A DNA stretch of 62,338 bases, the filler included, from Sluysia triapertura (Eukaryota), in assembly GCA_046118255.1 (NCBI GenBank). It is 5 parts of 5 records of this genome, joined end to end, with 100 filler letters (N's around TTAATTAATTAA, not from the genome) between each part and the next. Parts side by side here need not be neighbours in the genome. Positions count along the whole stretch, not along the records: positions 38,145 to 49,893 come from JBJNIA010173920.1; 4 more parts are not named here. One strand, given 5' to 3'. Shown here piece after piece: positions 14,490-61,083 of this stretch. A model generated the notes under the pieces. The model was not told the DNA's origin. It saw only the letters and a program-made list of their open reading frames with translations, and did not search any database. A program made the translations under genes and the position numbers. Every line of letters starts with the position of its first letter. Positions within the stretch are counted from its first letter, which is position 1.

Positions 14490-14804
14490 CGTTGGAGTGC
14501 TTCGCAACACTTCATCATTAAAAATACTTAAAAACATATCTTTATACATAAATTCTTATATTATTTTATCTTAAGCAAACATTTTTAATTAAGTTACTTA
14601 ACAAATGTATTTTAATATTTTAACAAATAAAACCTTATAAATGGTTATTTCTTCATGTCTTTCATTCTTTTGTTTTGATTCAAATATTTTTTACATTTAT
14701 TTGTCATCAGCGTTAATCATAATGTTTCATCACGATATTTATTTCATTTTTATGTCGTGAGTCATAACCCTTAAGTTCCTTCTTATCCTTAACTAATCCC
14801 AACA
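14490..14804 (-). mobile_element. Solo LTR-like repeat, family B (TGTTGGGATTAG...CTCCAAC)
   Basis: TGTTGG/CCAAC inverted termini. Homologous to 38145-38290 (-) and 45357-45590 (+). No clear TSD. Confidence 0.55.
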
Positions 14805-23531: not shown

Positions 23532-23930
23532 GTTATGATTTTTAGTAATGATCGAAGTAAAGTTAATGATGATGAACGTAACGATTATATAATATAATTA
23601 GCTACGAAGCTAAATCTAATATGTTTCATAACAATAAAGATACCAATGTCCCAATTATAATTCTTAGTAATGACCGAAATAAAGCTAATGATGATAAACG
23701 TAGTGATTATATAATATACCGTTGCGAAGTTAAATCTAATCTGTTCTATAACAACAAAGGTACCCATGTTCGAATCATGATTTTTAGTAATGACCGAAAT
23801 AAAGCTAATGATGGTAAGCGTAACGAATATATAATATACAACTATAAAGTTAAGTCTAACTCGATTTACAACAATAAAGATATCAATGTTCCATGTTTGA
23901 TGTTTTGCAGTGATCAGAATAAAGCTATTA
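23532..23930 (+). repeat. 120-bp (40-aa) tandem repeat, ~3.3 copies, reading frame kept over most of its length
   Basis: NNKDTNVPIIILSNDRNKANDDKRSDYIIYRCEVKSNLFY / NNKGTHVRIMIFSNDRNKANDGKRNEYIIYNYKVKSNSIY / partial third copy. The first copy is frameshifted. Confidence 0.75.
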
Positions 23931-24255: not shown

Positions 24256-24755
24256 TTAACCATCAAAAACATACACCACAAAATACAATGCAATAATCAT
24301 CCAAATATAACCAACAATTAATGTAATTAAACCAGTTAATAAAACACTTCCATCTTTAACATATTTAGATACCCATTGAAGAATAACATAGATAATTATG
24401 ACTGATATACCGGCTACTAAATATAAATAACTATAATGGACTTCCGTCCAATTAAAATGTCGAATAGTTACTGGCGGAATTACAGCTTCTAGTGCCATTA
24501 AACAAAAATACGACGTAAAAACTATAGTAAGTAAGGATGCTTGGACATAGTGACGATAAAGTTCCAAATTATGCCAGAATTGTTTCAGTCGATCCATACA
24601 TGTTATTTTTTATACCAGGACTCGCAATCAACATCTTCATCGATTGATACCTTATGTTTATCTGGATCACAGATTTTTTGTTTAGAATGCGATTTCTTGA
24701 TTTTTTTGTTATTATATTTTTCCATATTGAATGCAAACTTCTTTTCAGCTTTCCT
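24256..24755 (-). pseudogene. MFS transporter fragment (MFSD8-like, TM7-TM9 region)
   Basis: Hydrophobic helices with LEAVIPPVT..FNW, LYLVAGI and SKYVKDGSVLLTGL, resembling MFSD8 ET..TP.T...W and LSKR..DR.LLL.GL. The upstream hydrophilic loop appears joined by a 1-nt frameshift in an A-run near 24610. Confidence 0.55.
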
Positions 24756-24985
24756 TCAAAACATTTGTGTAGCCAGTAATTATGGCGAACCGCATTTTTC
24801 CAATTACGATGTTCATTTCTAAAATACATGAATTCAGTTTGCATCCAGTTATATATCTCGCTTAAGGTTAATTGTTGTTCAAGTGATTCTTGAATAGCTG
24901 TTTTAATTAAATTGACATAACTCATTCCAGGACGTGTCGGATTATTTCTGTAATAATTTCGACAGGTCGCTAAAGAACCATTCAA
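24569..24985 (-). CDS. FoxP-type forkhead domain fragment, intronless and divergent after KCF
   Basis: RNYYRNNPTRPGMSYVNLIKTAIQESLEQQLTLSEIYNWMQTEFMYFRNEHRNWKNAVRHNYWLHKCF aligns with FoxP [37 protein letters not shown]...YFR...TWKNAVRHNLSLHKCF. Confidence 0.75.
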   Translation of the reverse strand: MNGSLATCRNYYRNNPTRPGMSYVNLIKTAIQESLEQQLTLSEIYNWMQTEFMYFRNEHRNWKNAVRHNYWLHKCFEGKLKRSLHSIWKNIITKKSRNRILNKKSVIQINIRYQSMKMLIASPGIKNNMYGSTETILA

Positions 24986-25392
24986 TCTAAAACTTGATCA
25001 TTTGCTTCGACAATAATATTAAAATATCATAAGCTGATTTCTTATCAGTACTTCCCAATATATTGATCACGTAAAATAACAATTTCATAACATAACAATT
25101 AATAACTTCATAGTAACTCAGAAGAATGTCGAATTTAGCATGGAAGTAAAATGACCAGATTCACACATACATAAATTTGGGCGTAATGTGCCCTGACATA
25201 AGTTTTGGATTTTAATATTGTTATGTGGTCGAATATTTAATATTATAAGATTTGAAGTTGGACGATGAATGTTAGTTAAATTATTTTGAGGGCTTATATA
25301 TAACTAAAGTACTTGTATTGTAAGATAAGTACTTCGGTAAGGATATGGTGATCCATGTTCAAGCATTATTAATATCTGACAAAAATATAAGT

Positions 25393-40430: not shown

Positions 40431-41914
40431 TGTTTAGTGGTTTTTGTAGGGTTTTTCGTTCAATTAAATAATCTTTGAAATCAATTAAAAAAGAAGTTAA
40501 ATTAAAATCAACTTAAAATATAACTTCCCAATTATAACATCTATTCATGTAACCAAGCACTTTATGATAAAATTATCTACAGTGTTCGCCAGTAATTTCA
40601 ACAGTACAACCGGGAAAATATAGAGGTGATCTAAACTTACGCTCGAAATGAAAGATTCAAATATTAATAAAAGTGGATCTGATTTAGTAGAATATTCTTC
40701 AAGTGTCTTTTGGATTATTCTTTCCTTGTCATTGGCTCGGTGTAATAATGGTGGAAGAGTTTACTGTTGCCTTATGGATGGTAGTTTGATTGTTTTTTGT
40801 TTTTTCGCTATTTACATTGTGGTATGTGGAAATGACACATGGATTGTCTAATTTTCAAATTTTTTAAACGATATTTTTATTTTTTAGATTAATTTATTTA
40901 ATTTAAATTCTTTTTTACACAATTTATTGATTGCAGAGATTATCTAATTGATTGATTGCAAAGATTATTTAATTGATCGAAAAGCACTATATATAAAATT
41001 CTACTTATTTTATTGAATACACATGCACACCAACAAGACTAGCTAGTAACATGAATTTATTGATTTGCAATAAGTTGTTTGTACATGGAAATAAATTACA
41101 TAACATTAAAATGCACCAATTATCTGATCTACCCATGCTGAACCGTTTACCATCCATAAATAATGTGCATTCCGTGTCACGCTATCTTATATAAAAGAAA
41201 GAACGCATCTGATTGGTTCTCTGGAATTATCCATATCAATTCACGATAATTGAATAATATTTCCAAAATTTAAATATATTTCATAAAATAACTATATAAA
41301 TAATAAAAATGTTCACAGCAATCATAAAATACAACGAACCCTTGCAGGAACTCGAATGCTGTCTGCTCCGTATTAAATGTTCAGTCAAAAAATGTTTGAA
41401 TTTGAAACTGGAATTATAAATCCTTTTGTAAAACGAAAAGTTCTGACTATTTTGATTCATAAATTGATTTGGTTGATCTTTTGGTGTACTTTTCGTTACC
41501 ATCTGCGCAGGATTACCAGTAGAAGAAGTAGCATTGTGTACATTTACCTCCATTGCGTTTGTATTGGTTTCTGTTGTCATATCAACCGATTCACTAAAAT
41601 AATTACATTTCTTCGTAATTAGTAAAAGAAATTTGATGTACAGAGTACTTTATTAAAAATTAAACAAAAAATCCCGAAAAACAAAACAACAGCTGCTTTT
41701 ATATTTCCAAAAAGCAATGAATTTTAATAGCGACTTTATTTATGAAAGCTACTGACCAATAAAATACGATTATTTTAAGCATATTTAAAACGAACCAAGC
41801 ATAATTTTTATAATTCATATTTACTGTCAGACAGTCATTATATTTTCTAAATACTAAATGTATTTATTATATTATGGCCAATAATTTTACAATTACATTA
41901 TGTTAAAATAATAA

Positions 41915-42606
41915 TGTTGGGATAGTATAATTGACTATAAGAATCTAAAATTGTTAGACGGAACTGATAGTAGACAAAATGACTCAGAAGTGATTCTAGG
42001 TCATCAAGGATTCGCCTATGCCAATTATTGGTGATTCTCGACGACCTGATATACAGACTCGCGGTACTTCCTCATCATAACTGTTCTTGACTGATGTCAA
42101 GACCCCCATGAACCTGAAGAAAAATTCGAGATAGCCCGAACCACCAATACCGCGAAGTATACTGATCTCCAGGACAAACTGCAGGAACACTGAAGTGCAA
42201 GGTATCGTTGTAGCTTTGGGATCATGGAATCCCGAGAATGACACTTGGCTTCCATAAGGCCGAAATCAAGACCTCGGTACGACTAGCTGTGGAGTCCTCG
42301 AATAACGCAGACCGCGAGAATATCCTGCAAGGTCCTTGAAAGAAAGAAAATTGTTTCTCGACACAAGAAGACCTTCCTTCTCCGAAACATCTTTTTTAAT
42401 CATCGAACTGCGCAGCGAGAAGGCCTGGGTCCATTTTATGAAGTGTAACATTTGATGAGCCCACATATCGCATAAATGACTTACAAAATGTTTGAGATCA
42501 AACATAATTGCATTGGATGAGATAAGATGGGATACAGGCTTAAAGTACCATAGAATAATGATAGTATAATTGACTAATAAAATAAAATTGTTAGATGGGC
42601 TGATAG
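41915..42606 (+). mobile_element. Two-LTR TRIM-like copy of the tRNA-bearing element (LTR1 interrupted, LTR2 truncated)
   Basis: LTR1 = 41915-41970 + 42401-42450 (ends TGTAACA). PBS-like TTTGATGAGCCCAC at 42451. ~77-bp internal region. Purine-rich GGATGAGATAAGA at 42515-42527. LTR2 = 42528-42606. Confidence 0.7.
41971..42400 (+). mobile_element. 5'-truncated RLE-type (NeSL/Utopia/R5-like) non-LTR retrotransposon
   Basis: RRPDI (42039-42053), LTDVKTP, FEIARTTNTAKYTDL and VVALGSWNPEN (ALGSWNPEN at 42213-42239) match the PD..D / K..KY / GxLGSW motifs of restriction-like endonuclease domains. Confidence 0.8.
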
Positions 42607-45356
42607 AAAACCAATATATAAATTACGAAAAAAATTATTTTATATTATAATCAATAATTTATTATAAATACTTTGAATTTATTTATCTCTTCGGATTTCA
42701 ATACTCACTGTAATTAATTAAGTGTAAATCTTTGGTGTCTCCATATTCAACATGGGTTTATAAAGTATAGAGTAAGCATAATTTACAAGTTAATGATAAA
42801 TTTAAATAACTCTATGATTACTAAATTTATATACATGTCAACTCAAATATATGTCAAATAGTCATGTATTAACATATTTGCATTCTTGGTCGTCCAGAGT
42901 CCATTGGATCCTAGATACAAACCTTGGTTGGAGTGGTTACCTTTGTGATAAAGTTTCACATGTTTTCTGTTTTAAAATACTTTATTGATATTCTAATGTA
43001 ATTTCTAAAATCTTATATTAACAAAAACCTATCTCCACGAGATAAGAGCTGAATTCCAGATAACTGCGATCAAAGAACACAAATCTAGAATATCTAGAAG
43101 TAATTCTGTTTTAGTCATCTCATACTGGAAATATAAGATAATATCTGCAAACCTCAAAATCGGCAGATGTGATAGGAAATATTTATCAGAACAATGGAGT
43201 AAAAAGCCTTTCAGTTTAAAGAGTTGCATCTCTAAAGATCTGGATAATTGTAGACGCTAAAAAGGCATGCATTCTCAAGTTCAAAATTACACTATGAAAG
43301 ATCTAATCGGAGAAAAACAAAACAAAGAAAATTATCTGAACTATTCTTAGATAAAGGATGTACAGTGACTACTTTCTAGAATAGGCTTGATAAATCATAC
43401 TATATTTACAAGGATAATATTAATGTACCAAAAGGTATGAAAAAATAAAGCAGAGAAAATAAGAAAAATTATGAATTTTTCTTGTAATAACCAAATGTGA
43501 ATTATAGAAATTTAGAGATCCTGGATGAGTTCAATAAAATGTTCACTTTGGTCTTTTCGATGATTCACTTTTTATTGCACTCTCATTTCTAATGATAATT
43601 TAAAATAAAAATATTAGATTTTTTACAAACTTACAAATAGTTCTGAATTTTAAAAGTTAACAATAATCGAACAAAGATAGCGACACAAAATAATAATAAT
43701 GCCTATGTTTTCATATCAGTTTTATTTTTATTACATTGTAAAATAAAAGAATAAAATGATTGATAGATTGATTTAACTTAATTTGGTAATCATTAAATAA
43801 TATCTGCAATAATAATCAAGCATTTTGTAGATTAACTGATTAAACTTTTCTCATATTTAATCATCGAAGATAATGAACTATCATTAAATTATTGCTGATA
43901 TACTTGTATCATTATCACTGTAAATAAAACACATTTGAATTGTTTCTCTTCGATTCAAACATTCATAAGTATAAACTAAAATATTTAATTTTTAGTTTAA
44001 CAAAAATAAAATAAAGATTTACAAATAGTGATAAATTTCAAATAAATTATTTTATTTTTACTTTTTTCAATCAATACTTATTTAAATTTATTAAAAAGCA
44101 TATTATAATCAAAAAAATCACTTACATATATCTTTTCTGGAACAAGTACAATATATATTGAATATAAAATTGATTATGAATTTCTAATTCGCCAATAAGA
44201 ATCATGTAATTGTATGTGTGTATGTGTGTGCTATTTCATGCAGTGTGAAAAAGTGAAATTAATCTACATATCCGAGTTTTTGAAATGATACTAAAAATAA
44301 AACTAATGACAGACCATTTTTGTGTTTGTGTGTACAATTAATTTATATATTTTGAATAAATAAGAATGCGAAATTTGTAAATTCATTAATGTGTCAACTA
44401 AATCTTTATTGTTATTGCTATTGTCATTGTTATAAAGGTAAATTTTACACAATAATTGAAAATATGTTTCAAAATGATTCAATTTCAAAATCAGCTACTT
44501 TTAATTAAGTAGAAATGAAGCTAATTGTTTTATTTGCCAAATATCCATTTTTTAATTGATGTTACATAAGCATTATTATTCAGTCTACTATTATAAGTAG
44601 TATAATATTATAAAGATGGCGATCTATATTTTTATAAGATATTTGATATTTGATGCACATGTAAAGTAACAGATTTAAATGCCGTAAAATCCTTCGTTGA
44701 AACAGATCGAGTTCAAAGTATTTGATGTGGATATCATAGAAAATTATAAATGTGGAAATATTTGATGGTTAACAACAATATATGATGATTTAGAATGATT
44801 GTCTCAAAATAATAATCGTAAATAACATAATTGTTTTATGATAATTTAATGTAATAAAATATAATAAAATTTGAATTATAAATGTTTGTTTAGTATTACC
44901 CAGGTGTTTTGACAGTTGCATCATGTAGGTCTTAGGAGGATGACATCTATCGAGCATGCTACTGCTGTGATATTACTAACTCTTAACCTCCGGCAAAATA
45001 TTTTTTGACAGGGTTCGATTACAGTAAACGTCTTATAGTTGGCGTTTCTGCAACTTGATAAATTAGCTACTATCATAAATCTAATCTTACAATCAATTTA
45101 ATACTTAAGGGTCTATATTATAAACACAACGCTAATTTAATTAATAAAACTAACAATTTGAAACTGTATTAATTAATAAATTCAACTAAGAAAAGATATA
45201 AAACTACGAAGATTATGAAAAAGAAATAAAACTCAACTAAATCATAACTGTTAAAGTTGAAACTCTCTTTCAGTCTTTAACTTATGATAAAAATTAATTT
45301 ACGTGTACTTTCGATGAAACTTTATTCTTTCTTTAGAAGTTTAAAATTTTAGTGTA

Positions 45357-45590
45357 TGTTATTGTTGAAGGATAAGGGTTGATATAGGGTTAAAACTTAG
45401 GATAACAGAATAAGGTGAACGTTATTAAAGGTATTATGATGACTGTAATAGTAGGATAAGCATATAAAATACTTAAATCAAGATAAAATAATGAAAAACA
45501 CGAAGAAATAAGCCTTTACAAGGTTTTATCTGTTAAAATATTAAAGTACGTTTGTTAATTAAATTTAATTATAATTTGTTTAATTTCATA
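45357..45590 (+). mobile_element. LTR family B copy
   Basis: Homologous to 38145-38290 and 14490-14804. Confidence 0.55.
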
Positions 45591-47792: not shown

Positions 47793-49348
47793 AGTATCTG
47801 TTATTGTTGCTTATATTTATAAATAGTAATAGAAATAAAATTTTAGTAGAAAATTTCTATTTTTAGACACATTTTAAAACTCGTTATTTTAAACTAGATG
47901 CATCATTGTATAAAGTTGATTAAGTTAAATATTAATTTGTTTTATCAGAGATACTACTTTGTTTTTATATTTAGTATTAAAAATTTGTTAAATTAAATAT
48001 TTAGTGATTTATTAATTTCTGATAATCAAACTGAAATTAAATCGGTCAATAAAATTAATAAGATTAGTTTAATTTTTAGTAAAAATGTAATTATTATTAT
48101 AAAATTTAATAAAAATTGCTATAATAATAAATTTTATAGTTATTTCTGGTGAACAAATAGTTTTGATTGGGTATGTATAATGGGTACGTGCGTCCATAAT
48201 TGATTTTAGGAATGTCTATCTGTTAAACCATTATCTTAAAACCTTTTATGAAGTATTGAAGAAACTGAGCATCTGTCATCACACCCATCTAAAATTATGT
48301 TATATGCTACAAAAAAATCTTTTAAAAATCACTTTAAAAAAATTTATTTTCCAAAAAAAAGAAAATTATCTTCTAAAAATAGAATATAAGTGTCTAGAAT
48401 GTTTTAGAACATTCCATGCTGGTATATAAACTAACATCAGTTCAATTTAGTACACATAATTTTAAATACAATTTTCGGATGCCATCTTGTTTTCTAATAG
48501 CAAATTATTGGTGATTCAGAGTTATTTGGTGCTAATTTCAATCAGATATTTTGGAAATTAATTTATCGAGGATTATTTATTTTAATGGAATTCCACCATT
48601 GTGATTGGAATCGCAAAATCCACGATTCATAAAAATATTTAAGAAACCCGATCTAATGAGTTCAATTATGCAGTTCAAAATTATACAAAATAAATAAATT
48701 TTGGTTTTGAAGATCTAACATTCCTTTAAAACCTATTAAATCACAAAATAGATCAATGAGTTTATTGATTAAGTGTACTGTTTTAAATTATAAATGCTAT
48801 CAAAAAGAGATATAAAAGAAATATAAAAATTAAGTTTATTATTTATTGTGTATTTTATGTGTTCTGTTTTCTACGAACAATTATGATTATTCTTAAAATG
48901 GGTTCGCCTACGATAAACGTTTTATCTTATAAAAGGACGTCTTCGTAGGATTTTAACGCGACTTAAAAAATTAAAGATTAAGGTATTCAAAGTGACAACG
49001 TTATCTCTATAAATAACAGTCAGAATAATGTTGGCTCGAAAAGTTTGATTCTTTAATGAAGACTTATATTAATTCTTTAACAAATGCTTAAAAAGAAACG
49101 AATGACGGATAAGAGGCGTCAGCTAAATTTATTTTATAATGTTTTTCTTATTCTATAAAATGCTTAAATGTATGTAACGTTTTGGTTTATTAATTAACAA
49201 TTATTAATCTTATGAATGAAATCTTTATGTAAATTCTAATATTAATACTTAGGTATTCAAAATTTGTCTGCTCAAACGTAATAACTTCTTCGATTTATTT
49301 AATTCACTTTTCTCTTTGATTTATACGTCAAAATATATTAATACGAAC

Positions 49349-49637
49349 AAAATCTTTTATCGTAAAAAATTCTAACAACGGGATATACTTCAAAATTCTT
49401 TTATTGTGAAAATTCTAACAACGAGATATATTTCAAAATTCTTTTATTGTAAAAATTCTAACAACGAGATATATTTCAAAATTCTTTTATTGTAAAAATT
49501 CTAACAACGAGATATATTTCAAAATTCTNNNNNNNNNNNNNNNNNNNNNNNNNNNNNNNNNNNNNNNNNNNNNNNNNNNNNNNNNNNNNNNNNNNNNNNN
49601 NNNNNNNNNNNNNNNNNNNNNNNNNNNNTTTATTGTA
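49349..49637 (+). repeat. 43-bp tandem repeat (at least 4 copies) spanning a 100-N gap
   Basis: CAACG recurs at 49376, 49419, 49462 and 49505. The unit resumes (TTTATTGTA) after the gap at 49529-49628. Confidence 0.9.
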
Positions 49638-51545: not shown

Positions 51546-51939
51546 AAGTTAAAGATAAACTCATAGTTAACAAAAATAATGCTGAGTTCTTGGACAATAC
51601 TGCACCTACTAGTTCTGTTGATGATTTAGAATCAAAAGTAATTTTGATTCTTTTTATTTAAGAAATCCTTAATTGAAGAAACTTATGACGTGTCGAAATG
51701 AAAAGAGCCCATTCAACATCATAAATAACTCAGTATAACCTTTATGTTCAAGACAATAAAAAGTAAATCGCTGTTTGTTTTCTCGGTCATTTTGTTAATT
51801 ATGAAAAATAAATATAAATTATTAAATTATATTAAATTTATTTAATTTTATGAATCATGAAAAGAAAGCTTTTAAGTTAATTCATGTTAAAAACGCAAAT
51901 AAAGTTTATAATCATCATTTAACACCAAACATGCTTAAA

Positions 51940-53775
51940 GGTTTTATTAAGGTTCCAAAGTTATTTAGTAATTTATAAGGCATTCAGATGTTTTCACATT
52001 CACCTCTCTGATTCCTTTTTCTATTTCTTCATGTTAATTATTGCCATATGAAAGTATCTCTATTATTTTAAAGAAAGATTTTATTTCTCAAACATTTTAA
52101 ACATTTTATTCACTTTATAAAATTACTCGAAGATCTTCAATGCTTATCGAGGTTTCCAGAATACTTAAAGGTTAATAAGATTTCAGATGATCTCAAAATT
52201 AACAAACTATTATAATGCCTTCAAAGGTTTTTCAAGTCCACTGCAAGCCTCCACAAGGTCTCGACACCTTATATAAGTCTTTGGAATGTCAAGGTATTCT
52301 TTAACTGCGATAATTATTATAGATGTTTTTATTTTCGTTATTCTTTTTCCAATAATGGTTGAAATTTCAATCTATCAATTTGTATCAACTCTTTCTTCAC
52401 TTTGTGATTTTATGTCTCTTACTAATCTCCTAATCCACATTTGGACAATTCCAACATATCTCAGGCACCCAATTAAACATGATTAATTTGCCAACAATAG
52501 ACCGTATTTAAATTCAAAATTACAATAAAAAAATTTAAGAACCTAAACAAATATGTTCATTTTACAGAACATATCCGTCACAACAAGTCAGACACTAGGT
52601 CCCATTTCCACACCAGTGCAACATACAATACCATTTCCATCACTATAGAGACCTATCTTTCTCAATACTAATTCAAAACCAAACATGAAAGAAATCATCC
52701 AAAAACCAAATGCACAACCAACAACCTTCAACAAACTCATCAAATAAAAAATAAGAATAAAACTTTGACAATAAATTATAATACTTAGGTATCAAAAAAT
52801 TTGAAATTGAAAATAAATGTATTATTAATAAACTATAACTATTATTTAAGTCTCAGAAACGAATAAATAAATAATTTATCCATATTTAGTCAAATAATTT
52901 ATTTATATTTAACTAAATAAATCAAATAAGTACTTTAGGTAATTAATTTATGATTTGTTTAAATTTTTCAATAAAGATTTAAAATAAAGCATTTATTTTT
53001 TTTAATTGTTCAAAGATGTGACCATGGAAAATGTCACGCACATCGATGTAGCACAATTGATGTTGTGCAGAAAATTTCAAACTCACTTCTAAATTCTCCT
53101 CTTCCATAGCAATCATCTCGTATTCAATTCATTATATTTGCATCATTCTAAGAATAAAAAATTCAACATTGCAAAATTAAAAATTAATTAAAATTAAAGT
53201 TTTCCTTGCATGTACTCGGTCAAATTCAACATAGCATTCCGCATTCAAAAGTTATTCACAAAACGTCCTTTTTAATTAAGTTAATTAAGATTTTTAATTA
53301 TTAATTTATTTTTAGACTGAATCTTATTCTATTTTTAACGGTTTTATTGAACTTCTAAAGTTATTTAGTAATTTATAAGGCATTCAGGAGGTTCTAGATG
53401 TTTTCACCTTCACCTATCTGATTCCATTTTCTACTTCTTCATGTTAATTATTACTATACTAGATTTATTCTTAATACCAAAAACAATGATTTTATTTCTT
53501 AAATATTTTAAAGATTTTAAATACTTTATAAGGTTACTAAAGGATCTCAAATGCTCATCGATGTTCCAAGAATACTTAAAGGTTACTAAGGTCTAAAATG
53601 ATCTAAAGGTTCACAAGTTCAAAGAAACCTTAATGCTTCTAAAAGTTTTCCAAGTCATCCAAGCTTCCATAAAGTTTCAAACCCTTATATAGGTCTTTGG
53701 AACTCTAAGGAATTCTTTAGCTGTTAACATTATTATAGATGTTTTCAGTTTCATTATTCTTATTCCAACAATGTT
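51940..53775. repeat. Diverged ~430-bp direct duplication (51940-52360 and 53340-53775)
   Basis: Shared aaagttatttagtaatttataaggcattcag, gaatacttaaaggtta and ccttatata.gtctttggaa blocks in the same order. Confidence 0.8.
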
Positions 53776-56440
53776 TATCATTTTTTCCTTCATTTTATAA
53801 TTTTATATGTATTTATTCGTGTCGAGATCCCAACACAATTTAGTTCTAAATAATTTTCACAATCTACTTTACTATTATCGGACAAATCTGGTGTGTAAAG
53901 GTTTCATTAAGTTTACCTAAGTTGTAATTACGTCCAACTTTTGATTTCGGACTATCTCTGTTATTGTTGATTATTTGAGCAGTTTTTATAATCATATTAT
54001 TACATATATAATTTTGATTTTTCATTTCCAAAAAGGTTCATATGTCCAACAACAAGTTTCTTACATAATTCAAAATGAATAACAGAGCCTTACGATGGTA
54101 AATCAGTGCCTGCATAAGTTTCTATATATATTACATGCATTGCAGTAAAATTCTGTAACATTAAAAACTGATATGTTAAAAAATAACATTTTCTCATTAT
54201 TAAAGATAATATGAATGGCCTTTAGCGTACACCTCGGATAAATCATGCTTTTGAATCTTAGTTGAAAAGTTTTATAATTACGATCAACATGTTTACACGT
54301 TTTAGGTTGACTTTACACATCGGTTGAATCATCTTTTAATAATTCTTATATCAGATCACCTTTTGTATAAGAAATCGTAGATCATTTTAAAGCATCAATA
54401 ACTAGCAAATTCTTAGAAATTATCGATAAAGGACTTCAGTATTTTTAATTTATTTGCTTGGAGTCTTGGCCGTTTCATATAAGTATTACTTTTTTTATTT
54501 AGTAATATATTTATTTAATTTTCTAGTACTTTGTTTAAAATTATCTAAAAATTAATAAAAATTGCATTGTAAAATGTTTAAATATCAATTAAAAACTGTA
54601 ATAGATAAAACCATAATTAGATATAATAATATTATTACTATTATTACTCTAAGACTTTGCTGTTATAACTAGATATAACGTGATATAATATAATGTGATA
54701 TAATTTGTAAATTATTTTTTGTTTTTGATTATGAAATGAAAATATAGGCTTGACAATAATGACGCAATTTTTTAATTTTATATTAATTTTTGAATTTTTA
54801 ATTTTTAATTGCTTCACAAGAATGCAATAAGTTTGTTTGTTTCTTTATATATAATCGTTATAGAAATATGAATTCATTATTTTGACATCAAAATACATAT
54901 CATTCATGTCTCAATGGTGATAAAATTGTTATATTTTATATGTATTGAGTAATTTGTTTAATAATTTGTTTATGTAAGATGTGTTGATGTGTGTTTCTTT
55001 GTGATTGTGGTGAGTTGATTTTGAGTTAACCACAATCATAAATCTATTTTTTAAAGTCTTTGTCATTGTTTCTTCAAAATATTTTATTTTCACTTTCAAT
55101 TTTATGGCATTAATTTACAAATTTATTGAATTTGCATTTTTTATGAAGTTATTTTGACATCTAGATTATATTTTTAAAAATGTAAATAGAATCTTTAATG
55201 TATTTTTATTGCAGTTTTATTTATTAAGATAATCCTAACTTATTGAGTCCTATGAAAGAATAAAAATAACGAACTTTATATCGACTTTATTTATTTTTTG
55301 AAGTTATAATTAGAAATAATTAGAAACAAGTTTAAATAAATCGAATAGTTCACGTTTAAATTAATGTGTTCATCAAGTTAAAAATAGAAAATCAATAATT
55401 GTAATGTATAAATTNNNNNNNNNNNNNNNNNNNNNNNNNNNNNNNNNNNNNNNNNNNNNNNNNNNNNNNNNNNNNNNNNNNNNNNNNNNNNNNNNNNNNN
55501 NNNNNNNNNNNNNNNNNNNNNNNNNNNNNNNNNNNNNNNNNNNNNNNNNNNTAAAATTTTGTTAATTTTGTTATAATTGACTAAAGACGTCACGGTCAGG
55601 TTAAAAGTAGTGTATAAAGAATAATATTTACAGTAAAAGAGACAAAAAATTTGATAAATTTGTAATCTTTGGAGAAGAACTTGATTCTTATTGAAGATAC
55701 ATATCGCTGAAGAAATAAATCATAATTCTTTAAGAAAATTTGAGATCTATTACTGTATTCGTTAGTTAATTTTTATATAAGTTTTAATTTATTTTTAAAA
55801 GAACAGTAAATTTTGCTTAATTTTCATAATTGATTTAAAAAGAGATCGTTTTAAATCATCTAGCCAAATAACCTTTAATATTGCAAAAGAAAAGGTTATA
55901 TTAAAATCTATAAACTTTTATCTATATTATAATAACTGAATTGTAAATTTTTTCTGTATTTCATATAGTATACTTTATTAGTTATTATTTAGTTGTTTAA
56001 TTGATATCGAATTATAAGGTACCGATTTTATATTCGGCCACAACATATACACTTAAACTTTAGAGAATTTTTAGAAAAATAGAAACCGATTTTATCGGTA
56101 GTAAAATCAATTAAAACCATTTTAATAAAAGGAACGGTAAATTCATTATTAACATCTTTTCGAGTAAAATGTATTACCCTACAATCCATTAAAAATCTAA
56201 TTGCCAAGTAAATGCATTATAATTTCTTAAAATATTCTGATCATTACACTGACATTGTCCAATAAAACATTATAATTCATTAGACATTTAATAGATTATT
56301 GATCACTGTTAACCTCCATTAACTATCTTTTGTTTGCTACTTACAACTTAGCCCTTAAGTGTGTAAGACTAAGATTGTAAGGAACTCACGTAAATTACAT
56401 TTCTTGAGTGCATAACGCAAAAAAATATTGTAAAATAAAC

Positions 56441-57655: not shown

Positions 57656-58065
57656 AACAAAATATGTTTACTCAAAATTTTACTAAGGTAAGTGGTCCAC
57701 AACAACAAAGATGCTAAAGTCCTAATAGGAGAATAAGATTCAATGATAATAAAAACGATAAGGGACAAATAAATTGCAATTATAAAAATCAGGCAAATTA
57801 CAAGTTTAAAGATGGAATGAATGAATATAAAGAAAAACCTGAAATTCTTGAAATTTTTTCTCAACATATTTAATCTAATATTTTGTTTAAATAAAGCGAA
57901 ATGTGGAAATTGACAAAAAATGGAGTATAAATACTATTTCGATCAAATTAAATTCAATTTAATTGGTTATTGGATATTATATAAAATAATTTTTATTTAA
58001 AATATTACATAAAGCAAAAAGTCGATAATAATTTTTATAAAAAAATAAAAATTTAATTAAAAAAA

Positions 58066-61000
58066 ATGAAAAAATTTTTTAACAAACATGGTACCAATAA
58101 TAAGCTTACTCATCTTAAACAAGAATCTACTATGGATGAACATATAATCAGTTTAGATGAATTGGTAAAACGTCTTGAAACTAATATAGAGACTGGTAAA
58201 GAAGCATCAACTGCTAAGTTACAATTAGAAAAAGACGGTAAAAATGCATTAACACCTCCACCAGATAATTCTAAATTAATTATGTTTTTAAAACAATTAT
58301 TTGGCGGTTTTCAAATTTTACTTTGGATAGGTTCTTTGCTATGTTTGGTAGCTTACGTGATTACTTATGCTACTATGCGTGTACCACCCAAAGATAATTT
58401 ATATTTGGGTATTGTATTAGCAGCAATTGTAATATTAACTGGTTTGTTTGCTTATTATCAAGAAGCTAAATCTAATTCAATAATGGATTCCTTTAACAAA
58501 ATGGTACCTCAACAAGCAACAGTTATTCGTGAAGGTAAAGTTATCTCATTACCAGCTGATGAATTAGTTGTTGGTGATTTAGTTGATATAAAAAGTGGTG
58601 ATCGTATACCAGCTGATGTTAGGATTTTAAATTCATCAAATTTTAAAGTAGATAATTCTGCCTTAACAGGTGAATCAGAACCACAAGTTCGTAGTGCTGA
58701 ATTTACTAATGCTAATCCTTTAGAAACGAGAAATTTAGCGTTTTTTACAACAATGGCTGTTGAAGGTAATGCACGTGGTATTGTAGTAAATACTGGTGAT
58801 AGAACAGTTATTGGGCGTATTGCTACTTTAACTACAAATATTGTTGGCACTGAAACGCCAATTAGACGTGAAATAAATCACTTTATTAATATTATTACTT
58901 ATATTGCTTTTGTTAGCGGTATATGCGTATTTGTTGCATCTTTAGTGTTGGGTAATCCATGGATTGATGCTGTTTTATTTCTAATTGGTGTAATCATAGC
59001 AACTGTACCGGAAGGTTTGTTACCAACTGTTACTGTAGCTTTAACATTAACAGCTAAACGAATGGCTTCTAAAAATTGTTTAGTACGAAATTTAGAAGCT
59101 GTTGAAACGTTAGGCTCAACGAGTATAATATGTTCAGATAAAACTGGTACATTAACTCAAAACCGTATGACAGTTGCTCATGTGTGGTATGATGATGTTA
59201 TACATGAAATGGATACTACTGGTGGTTTAGTACCCGAAGAAATTAAAAGTGAATTGATGGAATCTAAAACGTGGGATTATATGGGTTTGATTGGCTTATT
59301 GTGCAATAAAGCCGAATTTGAAGCTAATCAAGATGGTTTACCAATTTATAGGCGTGCATGCAGCGGTAGTGGTTCAGAAATTGGTATTTTAAAATGTTTT
59401 GAAAGATATTATAAAAGTAATATTACTGTTCGTAAAGAAAATAAATTGATAGCTGAAATACCATTTAATTCAACAACAAAACTACATTTTACTGTTTATG
59501 AAATTAATGGTGCTAATTATGTGTTAATGAAAGGTGCACCTGAACGTGTTATTGAGCGTTGTTCAAGTATTTTAATAAAAGGTGAATATCAAAATTTATC
59601 CGAATCATGGAAAGAACGCTTTCAAATGGTTTATGAAGAACTAGGAGGTATGGGTGAACGTGTTTTAGGTTTTTCTATGTTAAAATTACCAGAATCAAAA
59701 TTTCCATTAGGCTTTAAATTTAATACTGATGATGTAAATTTTCCAGAAAGTGGATTAGTATTCATTGGTTTAATATCTATGATAGATCCACCTAGGGCCT
59801 CTGTACCAACTGCTGTAGAAAAATGTAAACGAGCAGGAATTAAAGTTGTAATGGTAACCGGTGACCATCCAATCACCGCTGTCGCAATAGCACGTAATGT
59901 TGGTATTATTGATTATAATTCGATTTTAGCCAATGATGTAGCCAAAGCTAATAATAAATCAATAATAGATATGAAAAATAGTAAAGAAGCTCAAGCTATT
60001 GTTATAACAGGTACTGAATTGAAAAATATTTCTCCACCTGATTTAATATCGATTGTATCTAATTTTCCACAGATAGTATTTGCACGTACAAGTCCACAAC
60101 AAAAATTGATTATTGTTGAAGCATTTCAGAATGACGGGAGAATCGTTGCTGTTACTGGTGATGGTGTTAATGACAGTCCAGCATTGAAACAAGCTGACAT
60201 TGGTATTGCTATGGGTATAACAGGGAGTGATGTCAGTAAACAAGCGGCTGATATGGTTTTATTGGATGATAATTTTTCTAGTATTGTAGTTGGAGTCGAG
60301 GAAGGGCGCATTATTTTTGATAATTTGAAAAAAACCATAACTTATACGTTATCATCGAAAATTCCAGAATTAGTACCATTTTTATGTTATTTAATTTTTA
60401 GTATACCATTGCCATTAGGACCTATTACTATCTTATTGATCGACCTAGGTACAGATTTATTACCATCAATTGCTGTGGCTTATGAAACTGCAGAAGCAGA
60501 TATCATGTCAAGGCCACCACGTGATGCGAAAACGTCTCGCTTAGTTGGTGACATATTAATATCAGTATCATATGGACATTATGGAGTTTACAATGTAGTA
60601 GCTGGATTTTTTACGTATTTCATTATAATGGGTCAAAACGGCTTTAAAGTAAGTAAATTAGTAGGTCTTCGTGATCAATGGGACGATATTTCGATTCAGA
60701 TCGTAACGGATTCGTACGATCAAGAATGGAGTTACAATCAACGTAAAAGTCTTGAATACACCGCTCAAACAGGTTATTTCAATGCAATTGTTATTATGCA
60801 GTGGTTTGTATTGTTCGTATGTAAAACGCGGAAAAATTCCTTTTTTCATCAAGGTATGCACAATATGCCAATGAATATATCTCTGGTCGCTGAAACATGT
60901 CTAGCATTATTTGTAACATATGCACCTTGTGAAAATATACTGCGAACTTATCCATTGTGGCATCAATGGTGGTACCCGGCTTTCCCTGTTGGAATACTTT

Positions 61001-61083
61001 TGTTTGTACAAGATGAAATACGTAAATGTTTTATAAGAAAGTTACCTCCTGGTAACTGGGTGGAAAAAGAAACTTATTATTAA
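58066..61083 (+). CDS. ATP1A: Na+/K+-ATPase alpha subunit (P2C P-type ATPase), intronless, divergent cation sites
   Basis: 1005-aa ORF with TGES, PEGL, DKTGT, KGAPE, DPPR, MVTGD, GDGVND, IDLGTD and C-terminal WVEKETYY. Confidence 0.97.

What the first reader, a model, noticed from the sequence alone, without database searches (positions are those of the whole stretch)
41915..42606. TRIM architecture: LTR, PBS-like site, 77-bp core, PPT-like tract, LTR
Seen: after ...TGTAACA comes TTTGATGAGCCCAC, a short non-coding core, a purine-rich GGATGAGATAAGA, then the LTR start again. Established: a PBS begins TGG and complements a tRNA 3' end, and TGGCGAGCC is tRNA-Arg-like. Inference: the full element is ~390 bp, among the smallest LTR retroelements, with a tRNA-derived promoter and a different tRNA as primer.
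Basis: partly seen in the sequence, partly recalled or inferred. Interest (0 to 1): 0.7.

Follow-up and report, generated by a model that had tools for sequence, protein, structure and literature searches.

The report
Flatworm tRNA-bearing mini-retrotransposon, LINE-hit
This is a decayed two-ended copy of a tiny protein-less jumping element whose end repeats carry a tRNA look-alike, likely of the Helenus kind described in 2024 but not listed for flatworms, and a piece of a second, likely site-specific, jumping element sits inside that look-alike.

Summary
The LTR-core-LTR layout is real, and the core is not a chance spacer. In one sequencing run both junctions recur in other copies: the LTR-end/PBS junction at about 191,000 summed depth against about 30 for unique flanks, and the core/LTR-start junction in 17-19 contigs that read TGT where this copy has AGA. 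A solo LTR in the window holds a tRNA-like sequence (Rfam, 36 bits) and an exact 4-bp TSD. This fits Helenus TRIMs (Kojima 2024); the host is a triclad flatworm, a phylum missing from that paper's list. Corrections: the core is 74 bp here and likely about 93 bp in the family (element about 405 bp, ordinary for Helenus). The 5' LTR holds a 430-bp, 5'-truncated piece with restriction-like-endonuclease LINE motifs, ending within one base of the LIN15_SM site in tRNA genes. The 3' LTR is cut off, so no whole-element TSD can be tested. The primer is undecided (Trp 8/10, Arg 7/9, iMet anticodon arm 9-nt core). The scan noted this family and the LINE before on other DNA of this genome. New member of a known kind.

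The parts
41915..41970 (+). 5' LTR, left part (TGT start, an internal deletion of about 29 nt near the start, ends in the first bases of the tRNA-like A box)
   Evidence: most copies carry extra bases before 41921/41923 (loose ends in 56 and 135 contigs)
41971..42400 (+). 430-bp 5'-truncated insert, likely the 3' end of a restriction-like-endonuclease (NeSL/LIN-type) non-LTR retrotransposon; broken by stops and frameshifts; T-rich 3' end; replaces about 13 nt of the A box
   Evidence: translation shows RPD-x14-D-x-K, KY and LGSW in order, the motifs of PMC4838377; repeated in the run (depth 1,700-19,800) and continuing upstream in 8 contigs; empty LTRs join 41970 to 42401; database searches gave no confirming hit
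42401..42450 (+). 5' LTR, right part: anticodon-arm region of the tRNA-like sequence, B box lost by a deletion of about 16 nt, TTTT run, ACA end
   Evidence: alignment with solo LTRs
42451..42464 (+). decayed primer-binding site (TT + TGATGAGCCCAC); primer tRNA undecided
   Evidence: position as in animal Helenus internal regions; junction deeply repeated; motif matches
42451..42524 (+). internal region, 74 bp, non-coding; likely lacks about 19 nt at 42474/42475 relative to the family
42515..42524 (+). decayed polypurine tract (8 of 10 purines; other copies read G at 42517)
   Evidence: (402 of 518 depth, 19 contigs)
42525..42606 (+). 3' LTR, truncated in the A box at the same base as the 5' LTR's left part; start decayed to AGA
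13250..13405 (+). solo LTR of the same family, 156 bp, with whole tRNA-like part (13318-13388) and exact 4-bp TSD GAGG
   Evidence: Rfam RF00005 36 bits, E 0.00069; not called by ARAGORN; TSD
37713..37854 (-). solo LTR of the same family, 142 bp, A box partly deleted, flanks TATA/TAAA (3 of 4)

Best explanation
The locus is a decayed two-LTR copy of an abundant non-coding repeat whose LTRs carry a tRNA-like sequence, likely a Helenus-type TRIM of about 405 bp, with a 430-bp piece of a likely site-specific LINE inserted in the A box of its 5' LTR. Shown: the layout, the repetition of both LTR/core junctions, the tRNA-like part, the 4-bp TSD of a solo LTR, and the insert. Inferred mechanism: RNA polymerase III would start at the tRNA-like A/B boxes of the 5' LTR, sometimes read through the TTTT run behind them, cross the core and stop at the same run in the 3' LTR, giving an RNA of about 320 nt with the tRNA-like part at both ends. 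A host tRNA would prime at the PBS, the PPT would prime the second strand, and the reverse transcriptase and integrase of an autonomous Gypsy-type element would insert it with a 4-bp duplication. Recombination between LTRs would leave the many solo LTRs. Later, a LIN15-like endonuclease would have cut the tRNA look-alike and inserted a 5'-truncated LINE copy by target-primed reverse transcription. This copy is likely dead: A box split, B box deleted, PBS and 3' LTR start mutated, 3' LTR cut off.
For: LTR-end plus first 24 nt of the core: flat summed depth 191,334 at 42448-42467 against about 27-30 in unique flanks. Core 3' part covered by 19-27 other contigs, of which 17-19 read on into a TGT LTR start. 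Five contigs go on behind 42474 with one 22-nt string whose last three letters equal 42475-42477, and a loose end before 42488 (2 contigs) matches that string plus the window's next bases at 21 of 30 by hand: a 19-nt deletion in this copy, family size about 405 bp. Solo LTR 156 bp, TA/TG...CA, tRNA-like 36 bits with TAGCT, CGG and GGTTC boxes, TSD GAGG (any identical 4-mer at that distance 0.9%). Sizes, TT-TGG start and G-rich end of the core, and 4-bp TSD match animal Helenus (PMC10886601). No TTTT on the + strand in the core or pre-tRNA LTR part (weak: 17% of 142-nt windows lack it). Insert: RLE motifs in order; 3' junction within one base of LIN15_SM's in tRNA-Arg genes; 2 of the 12 displayed rows of table 5c join an LTR left part at the A box to other points inside the insert (42143, 42167), i.e. 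independent truncated insertions at the same site. Host: top 11 beta-catenin hits are triclads, 70-80% identity.
Against: Only this locus's own contig spans LTR-core-LTR in one piece among the 8 of 86 records shown; two-LTR copies elsewhere are inferred from two separate junctions. The core's 3' part is about 200-fold less deep than its 5' part (300-840 against 191,000), which is not explained by a call; several contigs with the 3' part have other sequence upstream, and 4 go on behind 42524 into a different TG-starting sequence. The two LTRs (42 of 47) are no more alike than each is to the solo at 37.8 kb (31 of 35, 30 of 33). TGG is not shown for the family, no host tRNA set was available, and no whole-element TSD can be read. 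Four protein searches did not confirm the insert as a LINE (the one hit P0121 is an unrelated repeat protein). All copy evidence comes from one run, probably the source of this assembly.
Confidence: 0.82

Rival explanations
1. The abundant element has the same LTR and PBS but a longer or different interior (a LARD-like or autonomous element), and the 74-bp core here is an internal-deletion derivative or a minor subfamily.
For: Depth falls from about 191,000 to about 420 at 42475; other contigs holding the 3' core have unlike sequence upstream (loose ends before 42475, 42481, 42488); 4 contigs pass from the PPT into a different TG-starting sequence.
Against: The 22-nt string behind 42474 runs back into the window's sequence at 42475-42477 and a second contig pair carries both pieces, which points to only 19 missing bases; short deep contigs are easily lost at the 80% threshold against a decayed copy (inference).
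Confidence: 0.1
2. Two solo repeats (tRNA-derived SINE or solo LTRs) lie side by side by chance with ordinary DNA between them.
For: The family is very dense (3 loci in 62 kb here); the two LTRs are not more alike than other copies; no TSD brackets the pair.
Against: The spacer is itself repeated and joined to LTR ends on both sides in other contigs; the first LTR has no TSD of its own (ATAA / TTTG); TG...CA ends, 68 nt upstream of the tRNA-like part and a 4-bp TSD are not SINE features; chance adjacency about 0.01.
Confidence: 0.04
3. The element is a TRIM primed not by a tRNA 3' end but by the anticodon arm of initiator tRNA-Met (half-tRNA priming, as in Ty5/copia and most fungal Helenus), which would point to another kind of partner.
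For: Fungal Helenus interiors begin ggttatgagccca (DataS1); the window has the 9-nt core ATGAGCCCA at the same offset, 4 nt behind the LTR, the only such 9-mer in 123,320 positions.
Against: It needs 3 transversions in the first 4 bases; TT followed by TGG is the animal Helenus pattern; half-tRNA priming goes with Copia and 5-bp TSDs in PMC10886601, whereas the solo TSD here is 4 bp; an earlier unchecked note of the scan (e1-9808870) files the family under the Trp class.
Confidence: 0.07

Closest known systems
Animal Helenus (TRIMp3), Kojima 2024, PMC10886601; in size closest to bivalve and nemertean families (LTR 104-193 bp, interior 87-268 bp); Trp-type PBS as in Helenus-2_SyJa and Gypsy-32_NVi
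   Same: Two short TG...CA LTRs with a tRNA-like part (box A TRGCY and YGG, box B GGTTC) followed by a T run; short non-coding interior starting TT plus PBS and ending G-rich; 4-bp TSD; many solo LTRs; total about 400 bp.
   Different: Host is a triclad flatworm; Platyhelminthes is not in Table 1 or Table S1. AT-rich LTR 5' part. This copy carries a LINE-like insert in its A box. Sequence homology to named Helenus families was not computed; the paper regards Helenus as probably of several origins.
LIN15_SM and LIN25_SM (NeSL-related RLE non-LTR retrotransposons of Schmidtea mediterranea), Kojima and Jurka 2015, PMC4640811, S6 Fig
   Same: Planarian host group; same orientation as the tRNA-like target; T-rich then A 3' end; 3' junction at the end of the D arm, within one base of LIN15_SM's; S6 Fig also shows LIN25_SM copies in a tRNA-like stretch of Polinton-4_SM.
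   Different: Target here is a tRNA look-alike in a mobile LTR, not tRNA-Arg genes; no RT domain is present here, so the clade is not tested.
Cassandra and Ajax TRIMs (as described in PMC10886601)
   Same: Pol III promoter-like small-RNA sequence inside LTRs of a TRIM.
   Different: They carry 5S rRNA-derived sequence; Ajax makes 5-bp TSDs.
ta-TRIM of taeniid cestodes, Koziol et al. 2015, PMC4558846
   Same: A flatworm TRIM with PBS, PPT, solo LTRs and mostly 4-bp TSDs in Echinococcus.
   Different: About 198-bp LTRs, about 590-bp interior, tRNA-Leu primer; the passages read name no tRNA-like part in the LTR ('polymerase III' has 0 occurrences); reported absent from other flatworms.

Membership tests
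Helenus (TRIMp3) | Two LTRs with TG...CA ends around a short interior | tested here: met
   5' LTR TGT 41915 ... ACA 42450; 3' LTR from 42525 (TGT in 17-19 other contigs), truncated at 42606; met with decay
Helenus (TRIMp3) | tRNA-like sequence in the LTR with box A (TRGCY, YGG) and box B (GGTTC) | tested here: met
   solo LTR 13318-13388, Rfam tRNA 36 bits; in the finding's own LTRs the boxes are split or lost
Helenus (TRIMp3) | PBS directly behind the 5' LTR, complementary to a host tRNA | tested here: inconclusive
   TGA instead of TGG here; Trp-type 8/10, Arg-type 7/9, iMet-arm 9-nt core; family letters not displayed; no host tRNA set
Helenus (TRIMp3) | PPT just before the 3' LTR | tested here: met
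   42515-42524, 8 of 10 purines; other copies richer in G; weak on its own (0.8% of 9-mers are as G/purine rich)
Helenus (TRIMp3) | 4-bp TSD (animal families) | tested here: met
   exact GAGG at solo 13250-13405; 3 of 4 at solo 37713-37854
Helenus (TRIMp3) | TSD around a whole two-LTR element | not testable with these tools
   3' LTR end is missing here; no assembly held; contigs break at the repeat
Helenus (TRIMp3) | Under 1000 bp, non-coding, interior shared among copies | tested here: met
   74 bp here, about 93 bp inferred; both junctions repeated
Helenus (TRIMp3) | Pol III transcription and mobilisation by an autonomous Gypsy element | not testable with these tools
   not shown experimentally for Helenus either (PMC10886601); no partner sought genome-wide
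RLE non-LTR retrotransposon (NeSL/LIN group), the insert | RH, K/R-PD, D/E, K..KY and G.W motifs in order at the ORF's C end | tested here: inconclusive
   RPD, D-x-K, KY, LGSW seen in order across broken frames and RH upstream in other copies; no database hit
RLE non-LTR retrotransposon (NeSL/LIN group), the insert | Fixed 3' end, variable 5' truncation, specific target site | tested here: met
   three different 5' junctions at the LTR A box (41973 here; 42143 and 42167 table 5c); 3' junction within one base of LIN15_SM's; 3' junctions of other copies were not displayed
RLE non-LTR retrotransposon (NeSL/LIN group), the insert | Reverse transcriptase placing it in the NeSL/LIN lineage | not testable with these tools
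   only the last 430 bp are in the window
tRNA-derived SINE | tRNA head at the 5' end, simple-repeat or LINE-derived tail, no integrase-type ends | tested here: not met
   68 nt precede the tRNA-like part, TG...CA ends, 4-bp TSD, 17-nt tail
Cassandra / Ajax | 5S rRNA-derived sequence in the LTR | tested here: not met
   Rfam scan of the window finds tRNA only

The most novel reading that the evidence does not exclude
A planarian site-specific LINE of the LIN15 type has moved from real tRNA genes to the tRNA-mimic promoter of a very abundant Helenus TRIM and uses this mobile element as its main landing pad, knocking out the TRIM's A box with each insertion; the host would be a new phylum for Helenus. 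A further, less likely twist (about 0.07) is half-tRNA-iMet priming in an animal TRIM with 4-bp TSDs.
Probability: 0.5. Interest if true: 0.6.

Novelty: new member of a known kind. Interest (0 to 1): 0.4.

Why it matters
It would extend Helenus to Platyhelminthes and supply the interior (PBS, PPT) that solo LTRs cannot show, turning a 'tRNA-like repeat' into a defined TRIM. Thousands of such LTRs would inflate tRNA and SINE annotation in this genome. The nested insert offers a testable case of one retrotransposon targeting another's Pol III promoter, and an abundant family gives material to test the still unproven Pol III transcription of Helenus.

Tried and rejected
No whole genome is held for the window, so copies were judged from one run's contigs. 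No RNA holder listed. ARAGORN finds no tRNA gene; the tRNA-like part folds no better than shuffles (z -0.57) and has an irregular anticodon arm, so a working tRNA gene was rejected. Protein searches with the insert read through with X at stops: one spurious hit among 1.84 billion (P0121), none in the word-indexed search, Pfam or PDB sequences; the middle of that query is out of frame, so these blanks are weak. The second read-laying run was meant to show the family's PBS letters but listed no substitutions, because the deep contigs are short. The four S. mediterranea tRNA-Arg genes printed in S6 Fig of PMC4640811 fit the PBS at no more than 6 of 10 by hand; the ACG isoacceptor is not printed there. 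The core has no second copy in the window. A 15-nt AT-rich likeness between 42640-42670 and the LIN25_SM tail was dismissed as low complexity, since no tRNA-like remainder follows. The bacterial promoter scan is irrelevant to this host and gave chance-level counts. Earlier findings by sequence: none; near: none.

Full report
Setting. The window is AT-rich animal DNA (GC 0.20-0.32). An exon of a beta-catenin gene at 28992-30383 has triclad flatworms as its 11 best hits of 249 (79-80% to two species listed as Bdelloura candida and Camerata robusta, 70-74% to the other nine, then 47% or less). No whole genome is held. One run, X1, holds the stretch; it may be the source of the assembly, so it shows other copies in the same genome and is not independent support.

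The observation. Self-comparison finds the same repeat at 13250-13405 (+) and 37713-37854 (-). The first is a whole 156-bp unit with a tRNA-like part (Rfam RF00005, 36 bits, E 0.00069; one of 2 matches at E up to 5), a TTTT run, an ACA end and an exact 4-bp duplication GAGG; the second has flanks TATA/TAAA. Against these, 41915-42450 is one LTR split by a 430-bp insert (41971-42400) and shortened by two deletions, 42451-42524 is a 74-bp interior, and 42525-42606 is a second LTR that stops in the A box.

Is the interior conserved? laid 3,593 contigs on 41700-42900. Unique flanks have summed depth about 16-39; LTR parts 17,700-66,000; the bin with the LTR end and PBS 160,758; the bin 42479-42519 695. 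Of 189 substitution rows 40 were shown; four lie in or at the interior: 42511 (27 contigs), 42517 A to G (19), 42525 A to T (17) and 42527 A to T (19). So other copies have this 3' interior and pass from it into a TGT LTR start at 42525. laid 86 contigs on 42440-42536. Depth is flat at 191,334 over 42448-42467, across the LTR end and PBS, with no indel rows, and falls to 417 at 42476. Five contigs go on behind 42474 with one 22-nt string ending in the three letters found at 42475-42477, and a loose end before 42488 (2 contigs) matches that string and the following window bases at 21 of 30 (hand count). I infer that this copy lost 19 nt and that the family is about 156 + 93 + 156 = 405 bp. The tool warns that summed depth is no copy number; I use it only to say 'repeated by orders of magnitude'. 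Against this reading: among 8 of 86 records shown only this locus's contig spans the stretch, the 200-fold depth step is not explained by a call, several contigs have other sequence upstream of the 3' interior, and 4 continue behind 42524 into a different TG-starting sequence. The two LTRs are 42 of 47 alike, no more than either is to the 37.8-kb solo.

Primer. The site reads TT TGATGAGCCCAC. Each is unlikely by chance at this position (rough 0.001-0.02), but neither read-laying run displayed the family's letters here, and no host tRNA set was available. TT-TGG starts and G-rich ends are the rule in the animal Helenus interiors seen, so a tRNA 3'-end primer, Trp somewhat ahead of Arg, is the most likely.

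The insert. Its + strand frames give RPD-x14-D-x-K, then KY, then LGSW, broken by stops and frameshifts; 8 contigs continue upstream of 41973 with sequence that encodes an RH motif. These are the conserved RLE motifs named in PMC4838377 (passages). Four searches did not confirm this by homology. Empty LTRs join 41970 to 42401 with about 13 A-box bases between, so the insert replaced them; its 5' junction has a short microhomology with the A box. Its 3' end, a T run then AA(T), abuts the end of the D arm, within one base of where LIN15_SM sits in planarian tRNA-Arg genes (PMC4640811 text passages; S6 Fig parts 1-2 of 3). Two of the 12 displayed rows of table 5c (59 in all) join an LTR left part at the A box to other points inside the insert, which suggests repeated, independently truncated insertions at this site. 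The 3' junctions of other copies were not displayed. Why the 3' LTR breaks at the same base as the 5' LTR is unexplained; a cut by the same endonuclease followed by deletion is a guess.

Mechanism. See Best explanation. Shown: architecture, repetition, tRNA-like boxes, solo TSD, insert. Inferred from LTR-retrotransposon biology and PMC10886601: Pol III transcription, tRNA priming, Gypsy-type partner. The + strand lacks TTTT in the interior and pre-tRNA LTR part, as Pol III read-through would need, but 1,054 of 6,072 sampled 142-nt windows lack it too.

What is known. Kojima 2024 (PMC10886601; main text parts 1-4 and 6 of 6, supplement parts 1, 10, 11 of 11 and searches of the whole file) defines Helenus exactly so: 311-1263 bp, tRNA-like LTRs, 4-bp TSDs in animals. 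Its lists hold six animal phyla and no flatworm (0 hits for six flatworm terms in the supplement). Searches for a flatworm report found none: Helenus + TRIM + tRNA + LTR retrotransposon, planarian + TRIM + LTR + tRNA-derived + non-autonomous, TRIMp3, Platyhelminthes + terminal-repeat retrotransposon + miniature, Helenus + flatworm from 2024. Repbase could not be searched and may already hold such a family. The known flatworm TRIM, ta-TRIM (PMC4558846, passages), is larger and Leu-primed. PMC13570524 cites Helenus only in passing (passages).

Earlier notes of the scan. I had reached the Helenus and LINE leads before looking. The scan has many unchecked notes on the same family in other pieces of this genome; one gave the Trp lead and a 410-bp size, one the LIN15 paper. 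They are not counted as support.

Verdict. A real, decayed two-LTR Helenus-type TRIM in a triclad, with a likely LIN15-type LINE fragment in its promoter. New member of a known kind; interest 0.4.

Noticed in passing
window 14571-14804 (-), 38145-38290 (-), 45363-45583 (+): A second repeat family; two copies begin TGTTGGGATTAG, sharing the first 8-9 bases with the TRIM LTR; right ends not defined. A possible LTR of a partner or sister element.
   Followed up: partly
window 42524 (other copies): Four contigs pass from the PPT into a different sequence starting TGTAG, perhaps another LTR family sharing this interior end.
   Followed up: no
window 27908-33331 (+): Beta-catenin-1 gene, several exons; best hits are triclads.
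   Followed up: partly
window 58057-61083 (+): Single uninterrupted 1008-aa frame of a P-type cation ATPase, Na/K-ATPase alpha-like (Pfam hits; subtype by recall).
   Followed up: partly
window 24256-24997 (-): A Forkhead-domain frame (E 5.5e-20) overlapping the start of an MFS transporter-like frame (E 4e-6, below cut-off); odd juxtaposition.
   Followed up: partly
window 3420-3745, 23533-23893, 49348-49528: Tandem arrays of 51, 120 and 43 bp; the 51-bp array has open D/N/Y-rich frames.
   Followed up: no
window 51935-52360 and 53335-53776: Direct duplication, about 76% identical, 1.4 kb apart.
   Followed up: no
window 950-1360 (-): 136-aa frame that looks like a C-type lectin domain by eye (recall); no Pfam hit at E 0.01.
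   Followed up: partly
window 41970 and 42606: Both LTRs of the element break after the same TGATAG in the A box; unexplained for the 3' LTR.
   Followed up: partly
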